From: Escherichia coli
Lineage (GTDB): Bacteria > Pseudomonadota > Gammaproteobacteria > Enterobacterales > Enterobacteriaceae
Strand: one strand, 5' to 3'
Assembly (NCBI RefSeq): GCF_002854065.1
Contig: NZ_CP024153.1
Length of the DNA: 64,000 nt
Part shown: piece after piece, positions 52,001 to 55,000 of the stretch
Layout: each line of letters begins with the position of its first letter
Position numbering within the stretch: the first letter of the stretch is position 1
Position numbers: made by a program

Positions 52001-55000
52001 CCAGGCCGTGTGATTTCAGGAACGACTGCCATTCATGGCTTGTGTACTGACTGCCCTGATCCGAATGAACCAGCACCTGTTTTTGGGGATTACGCCGCCA
52101 TACAGCCATCAGCAGTGCGTTCAGGACAATGTCTTTTGTCATCCGGGACTGCATGGACCAGCCGATAATTTTGTGTGAGAACAGATCAACAACCACGGCA
52201 AGATACAGCCAGCCTTCGTGGGTCCTTATGTAGGTTATGTCCGTTACCCAACGCTCATCCGGAGCATCCGGATTGAACTGTCGCTGAAGCCTGTTGGGCG
52301 ACACGATACTGGCCTCGCCTTTACGAGCCCGCGGGCTCCGGTATCCGACCTGAGCCTTTATCCCGATACGTTTCATCAGTCGCCAGACTCTGTTCACTCC
52401 GCACTGTTGCCCGCTGTCCCGCAGATCTAAATGGATTTTGCGATAACCATAGACGCATCCCGATTCCAGCCAGAACTGTTTAATCTGTCCTGTCAGTCTC
52501 AGGTCTGCCTGATGGCGTTGTGAATGCGGCTGCTGAAGCCAGGCGTAAAAACCACTGGGATGAACATCCAGCACCCGACAGAGCAGGCGAACAGGCCAGC
52601 AACAGGTGTTTTCACGGATAAAGGCGTACCTCAGTCGGACAGCTTTGCGAAGTACGCCGCTGTAGATTCAATCTGTCAATGCAACACCCCTTTCAATTAT
52701 CTCTTTCGGTGTTTTGAACTTCAGTGTCTTTCTCGGTCTGTTGTTTAGCTGAGCAGCAACCAGATCTAGTTCATGTTGAGTATATTGGGCAAGACATGTC
52801 TTTTTAGGAAAGTACTGCCGAATTAGCCCATTTGTGTTCTCATTTGTTCCCCGCTGCCAAGGACTCTGAGGATCGCAGAAGTAAACTTTAACGCCGGTGC
52901 TGACAGTAAATTCTAGATGTCTGGCCAGTTCCATTCCTCTGTCCCATGTCAGTGATTTTCTGAGTTCTGACGGTAAACTCAGGAATTTGTCGGTAAGAGC
53001 CTGATTTACTGAGACAGAATCTTTGCCCCTGAGTCTAAGGATGATCGTATAACGTGATTTTCGGTCTACAAGTGTGGCTATATGAGAGTTTTTTGTACCT
53101 GAGACTAAATCGCCCTCCCAATGCCCCAGAGAGCGTCTGTTATCGATATTTCGGGAACGTTCGTGAATTGGTGTTCCGTTCACTATGTTAATCGTACCTC
53201 TTTCGCCTTTGCGGGTATGACGCCTGCCATGGCGAAGGCTATGCGACCGTCGCAGATGCTGTATATTCAGGTGGTGTAGCGCTTCACGGCTACGAAAGTA
53301 CAGCGTTTTATAAATTGTCTCAGGTGATATTCGCAGCGTTTTTTGACGTGGTTTTGTTCGCCTTAACCATCCTGATATTTGCTCTGGAGACCATTTCATC
53401 TCCAGCTTTTCCAGAACAAGCTTTCGCAATGGTAAATTTTGATCCAGTAAGCACGGTTTTGGCCTTTTCGCCATTCTGTTGGCTCGGTTATTAGCATCAA
53501 CAGCTTTGTAATAGCGTCTGCCCCGATTACGCTGAACTTCACGTGAGATCGTCGAAGGACTGCGATTCAGCGCAGTAGCTATCGCACGAATGCTCATTTT
53601 GGCTGACAAACCAGCTCGTATCTCCTCGCGCTCAGACAGTGTCAGGTGAGCTACAGCCCGCTTACGCTCATGGGGTTTTATGCCGCCAGTATCCCTTAAC
53701 ATAGTGAAGATCGTTCCGGGTTTTGAACCCAGGATATTCGCTATTTCACTGAAGCCTGTTCCGTTCTTCCATAGTTCAAAAACAGAGGCTTTTTCCTCTG
53801 CTGTAAATGTTCATCTCATTCAAAAAACCTCCGCAACCCCATGTTTTCACATAACTGTTGCGTTGACCAATTGAATCTACAGGGCGGATTTCCACACAGC
53901 ACCGGCGCCCGGCAAGGTGGGCCGATTTCCACACAGCACCGGTGCGCGGCAAGGTGGGCCGATTTCCACACAGCACCGGCGCCCGGCAAGGTGGGCTGAT
54001 TCCCACACGGCACCGGCGCCCGGCAAGGTGGGCGGATTTCCACACAGCACCGGCGCGCGGCAAGGTGGGCTGATTCCCACACGGCACCGGCGCCCGGTAA
54101 GGTGGGCGGATTTCCACACGGCACCGGCGCCCGGTAAGGTGGGCGGATTTCCACACAGCACCGGCGCCCGGCAAGGTGGGCTGATTCCCACACGGCACCG
54201 GCGTCCGGTAAGGTGGGCGGATTTCCACACAGCACCGGCGCGCGGCAAGGTGGGCCGATTTCCACACGGCACCGGCGCCCGGCAAGGTGGGCGGATTTCC
54301 ACACGGCACCGGCGCCCGGTAAGGTGGGCTGATTCCCACACGGCACCGGCGCCCGGCAAGGTGGGCTGATTCCCACACGGCACCGGCGCCCGGTAAGGTG
54401 GGCGGATTTCCACACAGCACCGGCGCGCGGCAAGGTGGGCTGATTCCCACACGGCACCGGCGTCCGGTAAGGTGGGCGGATTTCCACACAGCACCGGCGC
54501 GCGGCAAGGTGGGCTGATTCCCACACGGCACCGGCGCCCGGTAAGGTGGGCGGATTTCCACACGGCACCGGCGCCCGGCAAGGTGGGCTGATTCCCACAC
54601 GGCACCGGCGCCCGGCAAGGTGGGCTGATTCCCACACGGCACCGGCGCCCGGTAAGGTGGGCTGATTCCCACACAGCACCGGCGCCCGGCAAGGTGGGCT
54701 GATTCCCACACGGCACCGGCGCCCGGCAAAGTGGGCGGATTTCCACACAGCACCGGCGCCCGGTAAGGTGGGCGGATTTCCACACAGCACCGGCGCCCGG
54801 CAAGGTGGGCTGATTCCCACACGGCACCGGCGCCCGGTAAGGTGGGCGGATTTCCACACAGCACCGGCGCGCGGCAAGGTGGGCCGATTTCCACACAGCA
54901 CCGGCGCCCGGCAAGGTGGGCGGATTTCCACACAGCACCGGCGCGCGGCAAGGTGGGCCGATTCCCATATCGACATGTATGTAGCTTGTGTTATCCGTGG

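What the first reader, a model, noticed from the sequence alone, without database searches (positions are those of the whole stretch)
52661..53881. IS30 carries a nonsense codon at position 3 of its transposase gene
The reverse complement reads ATG AGA TGA where the canonical IS30 gene has ATG AGA CGA. The first available restart is Met39, which would remove part of the N-terminal helix-turn-helix. The terminal repeats are intact, so the element is probably inactive but still mobilisable in trans.
Basis: partly seen in the sequence, partly recalled or inferred. Interest (0 to 1): 0.45.

Follow-up and report, generated by a model that had tools for sequence, protein, structure and literature searches.

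The report
Defective IS30 copy on a plasmid
This is an ordinary broken copy of the well-known jumping gene IS30, with a stop codon at the third codon of its transposase gene. It is inherited unchanged in dozens of resistance plasmids, and the one point of interest is a 5.9 kb deletion that ends exactly at the element's tip.

Summary
Window 52661-53881 (- strand) is a full-length 1221 bp IS30. Both 26 bp terminal repeats are identical to E. coli K-12 IS30A. Codon 3 of the transposase gene is TGA instead of CGA (C>T at window 53813). The next in-frame ATG is Met40, not Met39.

It is not a sequencing error. The identical allele occurs in 50 PLSDB plasmids and 30 RefSeq E. coli plasmid records, from E. 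coli, Salmonella, Klebsiella and Shigella. NCBI's PGAP annotation pipeline marks the identical copy in the one record inspected as a pseudogene. Every one of these copies sits at the same ancestral site, inside an IS3-family element with a 2 bp GC duplication. None is on a chromosome or at a second site, as expected if the copy cannot transpose by itself.

The window differs from all of them. A 5,900 bp deletion removes rclA, several IS copies and the 5' half of the IS3 element. It ends exactly at the IS30 left terminus and joins it to a 37 bp tandem array. The window's flanks match TGA-bearing plasmids almost perfectly, so the deletion came after the mutation. Transposase supplied in trans is the most likely cause.

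This is a known kind of object and of low interest.

The parts
52661..53881 (-). Complete IS30 element, 1221 bp
   Evidence: Gap-free alignment to K-12 IS30A with 3 substitutions. 100% identical to copies in about 50 plasmids.
53856..53881 (-). Left inverted repeat (IRL), 26 bp, intact
   Evidence: Exact match to TGTAGATTCAATTGGTCAACGCAACA; identical to K-12.
52661..52686 (+). Right inverted repeat (IRR), 26 bp, intact
   Evidence: Exact match to TGTAGATTCAATCTGTCAATGCAACA; identical to K-12.
53828..53832 (-). Shine-Dalgarno GGAGG of the transposase gene
   Evidence: Best pairing to the 16S 3' end is -10.2 kcal/mol upstream of the native ATG.
53817..53819 (-). Native transposase start codon ATG (IS positions 63-65)
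   Evidence: Same position as the insI1 CDS start in NC_000913.3.
53811..53813 (-). TGA nonsense codon at codon 3 (canonical CGA, Arg3); mutated base at 53813
   Evidence: CGA is found at the same insertion site in NZ_CP075479.1 and NZ_CP041453.1, where an intact 383 aa transposase WP_001254932.1 is annotated.
53776..53814 (-). Out-of-frame 12-codon ORF (MNIYSRGKSLCF). Its ATG is created by the C>T change and overlaps the new stop (ATGA).
   Evidence: Mechanical ORF only; there is no evidence of function.
52668..53702 (-). Residual transposase reading frame from Met40 (344 aa). It retains HTH_38, the rve DDE core and the NCBIfam IS30 model.
   Evidence: Weak SD-like pairing of -3.5 kcal/mol.
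53881..53882 (.). Deletion junction: the IRL terminus joined to the 37 bp array. 5,900 bp are missing relative to NZ_CP032995.1 (locus L001 2101-8000), with 1 bp (C) of ambiguity. There is no 2 bp target duplication (CC on the left, GC on the right).
   Evidence: The junction is absent from PLSDB, RefSeq E. coli, the GTDB representatives and the JGI metagenomes.
53882..54967 (.). 37 bp tandem array, 29.4 copies. It is the surviving part of a 32.5-copy array and was the target of the deletion.
   Evidence: 100% identical and collinear with L001 1015-2100.
51743..52660 (-). 3' remnant of the IS3-family element into which IS30 originally inserted. Its 5' part was lost in the deletion.
   Evidence: The IS3-family terminal repeats lie at L001 7769 and 10138. 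PGAP annotates 'IS3 family transposase, incomplete' on both sides of IS30 in L001. ORF 51762-52574.

Best explanation
This is a defective but structurally complete copy of IS30. An active IS30 once inserted into an IS3-family element on a plasmid module that runs from the sil/pco genes to rclA, producing the usual 2 bp (GC) duplication. A C>T transition then turned codon 3 of the transposase gene into TGA. Translation from the strong native ribosome-binding site now ends after Met-Arg. The only in-frame restart (Met40) has a poor ribosome-binding site and would yield a protein without the first helix-turn-helix. The copy therefore makes little or no functional transposase. It has since been inherited passively with the module as that module spread among IncF, IncC, IncN and IncX1 hybrid plasmids of E. 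coli, Salmonella, Klebsiella and Shigella.

Its two 26 bp ends are intact, so it remains a substrate for transposase made by other IS30 copies in the cell. In the plasmid sampled here that appears to have happened once. The left end of the mutated copy was joined to a site 5.9 kb away inside a 37 bp tandem array, and everything in between was deleted. The probable route is the known IS30 pathway, in which an IR-IR junction (an IS dimer, or an incoming IS30 circle targeted to the resident IR) attacks an intramolecular target.

What is shown: the mutation, its inheritance, its single-locus distribution, the exact deletion endpoints, and the TGA background of the deletion. What is inferred: loss of activity, and transposase supplied in trans as the cause of the deletion.
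For: Mutation and intact ends.

The canonical CGA with an annotated intact 383 aa transposase is found at the very same insertion site in related plasmids. The original site has a 2 bp GC duplication.

The TGA allele is in 50 of 1,077 PLSDB records and 30 of 3,906 RefSeq E. coli records that carry this part of IS30. All are plasmids with one copy per listed record. The same 50 accessions carry the ancestral IS3|IRL junction at 100% identity. No TGA allele was found in the GTDB representatives or the JGI metagenomes. PGAP annotates the identical copy in NZ_CP032995.1 as a pseudogene.

Ribosome-binding strength is -10.2 kcal/mol for the native start and -3.5 for Met40. Predicted helices 7-18, 23-30 and 34-44 form HTH1; Pfam HTH_38 covers residues 58-98.

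Deletion: the window is collinear with L001 on both sides, with L001 2101-8000 missing and the endpoint at the first base of IRL, give or take 1 bp. The window's flanks differ from the TGA plasmids L001 and L005 by 0-1 mismatch in about 10 kb. They differ from the CGA plasmids by 74-75 mismatches in 4.8 kb and 21-38 in 2.1 kb.

[quoted passage not shown] Strain W5-6, host of the closest plasmid, has three near-identical chromosomal IS30 copies (row H28). Of 5,426 complete E. coli genomes, 3,110 carry a near-full-length IS30.
Against: No transposition of the TGA copy to a new locus was found in any collection, so trans-mobilisation in the full sense (a new insertion) is undocumented. The array target is not palindromic: 2 of 11 symmetric positions, against 6 of 11 at two bona fide IS30 sites. 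The junction also has a 1 bp microhomology, which is compatible with template switching or illegitimate recombination. The host genome of this plasmid is not available, so the presence of an intact IS30 donor is unknown, and the 64 kb window has no second copy. The junction is seen only in this one assembly, and read-level support could not be examined. UGA read-through and restart at Met40 were not measured.
Confidence: 0.7

Rival explanations
1. The deletion says nothing about trans-mobilisation of the mutated copy. One route is that a second, intact IS30 inserted into the 37 bp array in the same orientation, and homologous recombination between the two copies then removed the interval. The other route is that the deletion was transposase-independent illegitimate recombination that happened to end at the IS terminus.
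For: The final structure is the same under every model. There is 1 bp of microhomology at the joint. Snesrud et al. (PMC5821093) relay that IS30-associated deletions still occur at about 1000-fold lower frequency without transposase. The target is not hot-spot-like.
Against: To keep TGA at IS position 69 while taking the left flank from the second copy, the crossover would have to fall within the first 68 bp of 1221 bp, about 6% if crossovers are uniform. No plasmid with an IS30 at this array position exists in PLSDB, RefSeq E. coli, the GTDB representatives or the JGI metagenomes. A random deletion endpoint landing within 1 bp of the IS tip is unlikely a priori. PMC9333248 notes that non-transpositional deletions had endpoints 'distant to the IR ends'.
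Confidence: 0.2
2. The copy is not dead. Either low-level UGA read-through gives a full-length R3W protein, or initiation at Met40 gives an HTH1-less protein. Either would supply enough transposase for the element to act on its own ends, and the deletion would then be self-inflicted.
For: The Met40 product keeps HTH_38 (the IR-binding motif), the rve DDE core and the full NCBIfam IS30 model. From my own recall, UGA is the leakiest stop codon in E. coli, and Nagy et al. 2004 (abstract, not held here) reported that HTH1 is needed for hot-spot targeting but not for IR targeting. The deletion target is indeed not hot-spot-like.
Against: Met40 has a weak ribosome-binding site. The new stop overlaps an out-of-frame ATG that would capture any reinitiating ribosomes. 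The allele has produced no daughter copies in 58 distinct plasmid records or on any of 5,813 chromosomal IS30 places. Met40 truncates the predicted recognition helix of HTH1.
Confidence: 0.08
3. The T at 53813, or the array|IRL join, is an artefact of sequencing or assembly.
For: Assemblies commonly break or mis-join at IS boundaries. The junction is unique to this window.
Against: The T is shared by 58 independently assembled plasmid records. The 1.1 kb array next to the junction is base-for-base identical to that of L001 and L005, which implies a long-read-quality assembly. Both sides are collinear with a simple deletion, and the missing genes are nowhere else in the window.
Confidence: 0.03

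Closest known systems
IS30 of E. coli K-12 (IS30A, insI1/b0256; ISfinder IS30, founding member of the IS30 family)
   Same: Same length (1221 bp), identical 26 bp IRL and IRR, and 1218 of 1221 identical bases. It has the same gene organisation, the same 2 bp duplication at the ancestral site, and the same kind of target: both sit in the ILKKA-coding stretch of an IS3-family orfA.
   Different: Codon 3 is TGA instead of CGA, so the 383 aa transposase cannot be made from the native start. V261L and one synonymous change are also present, and both are shared with the intact CGA copy at this site (L003). In this window there is no target duplication, because the left flank was replaced by a deletion.
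The same TGA allele in public plasmids, e.g. NZ_CP032995.1 (E. coli W5-6 p3), NZ_CP072461.1 (K. pneumoniae pK-1L-1), NZ_CP011429.1 (Salmonella pYU39_IncA/C)
   Same: 100% identical over 1221 bp. The right flank is the same. In NZ_CP032995.1 PGAP annotates it as 'IS30-like element IS30 family transposase, incomplete, missing N-terminus'.
   Different: All of them keep the ancestral left flank (IS3 5' half, hypothetical gene, IS1, rclA, IS1, ISEc22). The window lacks these 5.9 kb and has the array abutting IRL.
IS30-mediated adjacent deletions through IR-IR junctions / (IS30)2 dimers (Olasz, Kiss, Szabo and colleagues; PMC9333248)
   Same: The deletion starts exactly at the edge of an IR, one IS copy is retained, and the process is known to work with transposase supplied in trans.
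   Different: This is a natural plasmid, not a laboratory construct. The retained copy is itself transposase-defective. The pathway is inferred from the end product only.
Decay of ISApl1 (IS30 family) around mcr-1 by abortive transposition (Snesrud et al. 2018, PMC5821093)
   Same: Deletions associated with an IS30-family end, with 1-4 bp of shared sequence left at the joint.
   Different: There the IS itself is lost. Here the IS is retained intact and the flanking DNA is lost.

Membership tests
IS30 (the element; IS30 family) | About 1.2 kb element bounded by the 26 bp IS30 IRL and IRR | tested here: met
   1221 bp, with both IRs identical to K-12 IS30A.
IS30 (the element; IS30 family) | A single long ORF encoding a DDE transposase with an N-terminal HTH and an rve catalytic core | tested here: not met
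   The ORF is interrupted by TGA at codon 3. The remaining 344 codons still match Pfam HTH_38 and rve and NCBIfam NF033563 transpos_IS30 at 276.9 bits against a cutoff of 80. By descent it is a member, but a pseudogenised one.
IS30 (the element; IS30 family) | 2 bp target-site duplication | tested here: not met
   In the window the flanks are CC and GC. The feature is met at the ancestral locus in L001 and L003, with GC on both sides. The difference is explained by the later deletion.
Non-autonomous (defective) IS that can be mobilised in trans | Both ends intact and recognisable by the family's transposase | tested here: met
Non-autonomous (defective) IS that can be mobilised in trans | No functional transposase produced by the element itself | not testable with these tools
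   Inferred from the nonsense codon at position 3, the weak Met40 ribosome-binding site and the absence of daughter copies. It needs a protein or transposition assay.
Non-autonomous (defective) IS that can be mobilised in trans | Evidence that its ends were used after inactivation | tested here: inconclusive
   An IRL-flush 5.9 kb deletion lies on a TGA background, but there is no new insertion anywhere, and alternative routes are not excluded.

The most novel reading that the evidence does not exclude
The Met40-initiated, HTH1-less transposase is made at a low level and retains IR binding and catalysis. This would make the TGA allele a natural separation-of-function variant: it can no longer insert into hot spots, so it has no daughter copies, but it can still form IR-IR junctions and cause local rearrangements such as the non-hot-spot deletion seen here.
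Probability: 0.06. Interest if true: 0.4.

Novelty: already known. Interest (0 to 1): 0.15.

Why it matters
It matters little beyond careful annotation. The gene should be marked as a pseudogene, as PGAP already does for an identical copy. The copy should not be counted as a transposase source when judging how mobile this plasmid region is.

There are two modest practical points. The TGA allele is a convenient lineage marker for one sub-lineage of a widely travelling plasmid module (sil/pco to rclA, FIB-type) that is also found on tet(X4) plasmids. The IRL-flush deletion is a natural example of a dead IS copy whose intact ends probably still reshaped its plasmid, here removing rclA and several other IS copies, most likely with transposase made elsewhere in the cell.

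Tried and rejected
1. I recalled a second difference in codon 4 (ACT versus ACA). Alignment to K-12 showed ACA is canonical, so my recollection was wrong.

2. I looked for the TGA allele at other loci as a direct sign of transposition. None was found in PLSDB, RefSeq E. coli, the GTDB representatives or the JGI metagenomes.

3. I looked for the window's array|IRL junction, or an intermediate with an IS30 in the array. None was found in four collections.

4. I looked for a second IS30 or stray IRs in the window. There are none.

5. I tried to read the primary papers on the IS30 N-terminal domain and target consensus (Nagy 2004, Olasz 1997/1998, Szabo 2010, Siguier 2014). None is held. Statements on the role of HTH1 therefore rest on secondary citations (PMC4473070 and PMC1525189) and on my own recall.

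6. The promoter and terminator scan around the left end gave nothing.

7. The single-sequence AlphaFold model is usable only for residues 1 to about 110 (pLDDT 50-87). The catalytic part is unreliable (mean pLDDT 42.6) and was not used.

8. I considered inversion instead of deletion. It is rejected because both flanks are collinear with L001 on the same strand and the missing genes are absent from the window.

9. I considered selenocysteine or programmed recoding at the TGA. No specific test was run, and I know of no such recoding in IS30.

Full report
**The observation**

On the minus strand, window 52661-53881 begins TGTAGATTCAATTGG... and ends ...CAGATTGAATCTACA. After a GGAGG ribosome-binding site it reads ATG AGA TGA ACA TTT.

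I fetched IS30A of E. coli K-12 MG1655, where insI1 (b0256, 383 aa) is annotated from this same ATG, and aligned the two. There are 1221 columns, no gaps and three differences:
- IS position 69, C>T: CGA>TGA, Arg3 to stop, window base 53813.
- IS position 843, G>C: V261L.
- IS position 1046, T>C: synonymous.

Both 26 bp inverted repeats are identical to K-12, and this is the only IS30 sequence in the 64 kb window.

One detail is off by one. The first in-frame ATG, GTG or TTG after the stop is codon 40. The ORF at 52668-53702 has 344 aa, and 383 minus 344 leaves 39 residues lost.

**It is a real, inherited allele**

- The full 1221 bp sequence is 100% identical to copies on many plasmids.
- A 92 bp probe centred on the mutation separates the alleles by a single mismatch.
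- In PLSDB, 50 of 1,077 records carrying this part of IS30 have TGA.
- Among complete RefSeq E. coli genomes, 30 of 3,906 records have TGA. All 30 are plasmids with one copy each, and none of the 5,813 chromosomal IS30 places has it.
- The hosts are E. coli, Salmonella enterica, Klebsiella pneumoniae and Shigella flexneri. Replicon types include IncC, IncFIA/FIB/IncN and IncFIA/FIB/IncX1.
- In NZ_CP032995.1, PGAP annotates the identical copy as a pseudogene, 'incomplete... missing N-terminus'.

A sequencing error in this assembly is therefore excluded as far as it can be without the reads.

**Where the allele lives**

In the relatives, IS30 sits inside an IS3-family element (terminal repeats at L001 7769 and 10138). 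The left flank reads ...AAAAAAGCCGC and the right flank GCGGCGTACTT..., which is a 2 bp GC target duplication.

A probe across the IS3|IRL junction finds 229 plasmids. Exactly 50 of them are 100% identical, and they are the same 50 accessions that carry TGA. The rest listed differ by one base. Where inspected, the non-TGA copies have CGA and an annotated intact transposase, WP_001254932.1.

The simplest history is one insertion by an active element, followed by a C>T change within this plasmid module. No TGA copy was found at any other locus in PLSDB or RefSeq E. coli. No exact match to the allele exists in the GTDB species representatives or the JGI metagenome contigs. A copy that has produced no daughters in 58 distinct records is what one expects from an element that cannot transpose on its own.

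**What the mutation does to expression (inference)**

- The native start has a strong Shine-Dalgarno sequence (-10.2 kcal/mol pairing with the 16S 3' end). Ribosomes would make Met-Arg and then terminate.
- The C>T change itself creates an ATG that overlaps the new stop (AGATGA). That ATG opens a 12-codon out-of-frame ORF and would capture any reinitiating ribosomes.
- Between the stop and Met40 there are only very weak in-frame near-cognate codons. Met40 itself has weak SD-like pairing of -3.5 kcal/mol.
- A single-sequence AlphaFold model is confident only in the N-terminus (pLDDT 77-87 for residues 1-60). It places helices at 7-18, 23-30 and 34-44 (a first three-helix HTH) and then at 49-56, 61-70, 77-83 and 88 onwards.
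- Pfam puts its best HTH_38 match at residues 58-98, with a weaker second stretch that adds about 15 bits when the N-terminus is present.
- Met40 therefore lies in the recognition helix of the first HTH. A restart there removes essentially all of HTH1 but leaves the second HTH, the rve core and the whole NCBIfam IS30 model intact.

[quoted passage not shown] HTH1 is linked to target choice (PMC4473070; PMC1525189). From memory of the Nagy et al. 2004 abstract, which I could not retrieve, HTH1 is needed for hot-spot targeting but not for targeting of IRs. I treat that as a lead, not as evidence.

**The unexpected part: the left flank**

In this window the left flank is not the IS3 element but a 37 bp tandem array (53882-54967, 29.4 copies). 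Comparison with NZ_CP032995.1 (locus L001) shows two collinear blocks:
- Window 44660-53885 matches L001 17221-7996 at 99.97% identity.
- Window 53882-55981 matches L001 2100-1 at 100% identity.

L001 2101-8000 is missing from the window. That is 5,900 bp, comprising:
- the last three units of the array;
- ISEc22 and its tnpB;
- two IS1 copies;
- rclA;
- a hypothetical gene;
- the 5' part of the IS3-family element.

At base level the array reads ...GGAAATCCGCCC|ACCTTACC... and the old flank reads ...AAAGCCGC|TGTAGATTC. The window reads ...GGAAATCCGCCC|TGTAGATTC. The deletion therefore ends at the first base of IRL, with one ambiguous C. None of the missing genes is elsewhere in the window, so this is a simple deletion and not an inversion.

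The junction was not found in PLSDB, RefSeq E. coli, the GTDB representatives or the JGI metagenomes.

**Order of events**

| Comparison with the window | Plasmids | Right flank | Left flank |
|---|---|---|---|
| TGA plasmids | L001, L005 | 1 mismatch plus one 1 bp gap (L001) or 1 mismatch (L005) in about 8 kb | 0 mismatches in 2.1 kb |
| CGA or frameshifted plasmids | L003, L006, L007 | 74-75 mismatches in 4.8 kb | 21-38 mismatches in up to 2.1 kb |

The right-flank differences from the CGA group are clustered in a recombinant block over the GGDEF gene.

The parent of this plasmid was therefore an L001/L005-like plasmid that already carried TGA. The alternative is to put TGA onto an already deleted plasmid, or to delete by homologous recombination with a second, intact IS30 inserted in the array. 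Either needs a crossover within the 68 bp between the IS tip and the mutation.

**Mechanism**

IS30 uses copy-out-paste-in transposition. It forms IR-IR junctions (minicircles or IS dimers), which then attack a target. Intramolecular attack gives deletions or inversions.

[quoted passage not shown] A substrate unable to encode transposase used enzyme from other plasmids or from chromosomal IS30 copies (PMC9333248). IS30 circles also target resident IRs, which would create such a junction next to the mutated copy.

The end product here is one retained IS, its original right flank, and a new left flank flush with IRL. That is what this pathway predicts.

A donor of transposase is plausible. Of 5,426 complete E. 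coli genomes, 3,110 carry a near-full-length IS30, and strain W5-6, host of the closest plasmid, has three chromosomal copies.

There are caveats:
- The array site is not palindromic: 2 of 11 symmetric positions, against 6 of 11 at the two genuine insertion sites examined.
- The 1 bp microhomology is also compatible with abortive transposition and template switching, as proposed for ISApl1, or with rare transposase-independent events (PMC5821093).
- Only the end product is visible.

I put about 0.55 on the transposase-in-trans origin of the deletion and about 0.9 on the copy being autonomously inactive.

**Comparison with what is known, and verdict**

The element is IS30 itself, 99.75% identical to the K-12 reference, and the exact allele is already in public records, one of them inspected and annotated as a pseudogene. 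IS copies with early nonsense mutations, and IS-flush adjacent deletions, are both textbook phenomena.

Novelty: already known. Interest: low (0.15).

The most novel reading not excluded is that an HTH1-less Met40 product retains IR-directed activity and caused the deletion itself. I give this about 6%.

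Noticed in passing
window 53882-54967: A 37 bp tandem array of 29.4 copies at 91% match (consensus GGGCGGATTTCCACACGGCACCGGCGCCCGGCAAGGT). It is open in all three frames of the minus strand, giving mechanical ORFs of 363-391 aa. Related plasmids have 32.5 copies, and the unit order is conserved base for base. Its function is unknown to me.
   Followed up: partly
window 17626-17739: A second, short copy of the same 37 bp repeat (about 1.7 units). It is followed by the same roughly 55 bp sequence that closes the long array in relatives (...CATCTTCATGACAAAAATTTGTCAAATGACAGGCTCATGTGTGCTGATTTATGT), at about 93% identity. This suggests a duplicated or paralogous backbone region.
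   Followed up: no
window 57347-57553: 4.8 tandem copies of a 43 bp unit (96% match), lying just beside the ParB/SopA partition genes as mapped from L003. From my knowledge of the 43 bp sopC repeats of plasmid F, this is probably the partition centromere.
   Followed up: no
L001 7981-8000 / 9222-9241 and L002 2022-2041 / 3263-3282: The ancestral IS30 site in the IS3-family orfA (TTAAAAAAAGCC-GC-GGCG) and the K-12 IS30A site in IS911 (TTAAAAAAGGCT-AC-CGCG) lie at homologous positions, in the stretch that appears to encode the conserved ILKKA motif of IS3-family OrfA (motif assignment from my own reading, not tool-checked). IS30 appears to have hit the same conserved sequence in two different IS3-family elements.
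   Followed up: partly
L006 9120-10339 (NZ_CP041443.1, pYPE12-101k-tetX4): The IS30 copy at the same site in this plasmid differs from the window's copy by one mismatch, presumably CGA at codon 3, and by a 1 bp gap. It has no annotated protein. This looks like an independent frameshift lesion of the same insertion.
   Followed up: no
window about 47860-49230 (3.4-4.8 kb to the right of IS30 in its orientation; GGDEF gene): Nearly all of the 72-75 differences between the two plasmid groups cluster in this 1.4 kb block, which corresponds to two diguanylate cyclase alleles (WP_011251353.1 and WP_001148756.1). The TGA allele occurs with both, so the module has recombined since the mutation arose.
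   Followed up: partly
window 53811-53832 (- strand): The mutation leaves a strong Shine-Dalgarno sequence followed by a two-codon 'minigene', AUG-AGA-UGA, which uses the rare AGA codon. From memory, such minigenes can sequester tRNA as peptidyl-tRNA in Pth-deficient cells. An effect here is unlikely.
   Followed up: no
PLSDB, junction probes: 244 plasmids keep the IS30-IRR|IS3 junction but only 229 keep the IS3|IRL junction. About 15 records must therefore have some change on the IRL side of this insertion. They were not retrieved.
   Followed up: no
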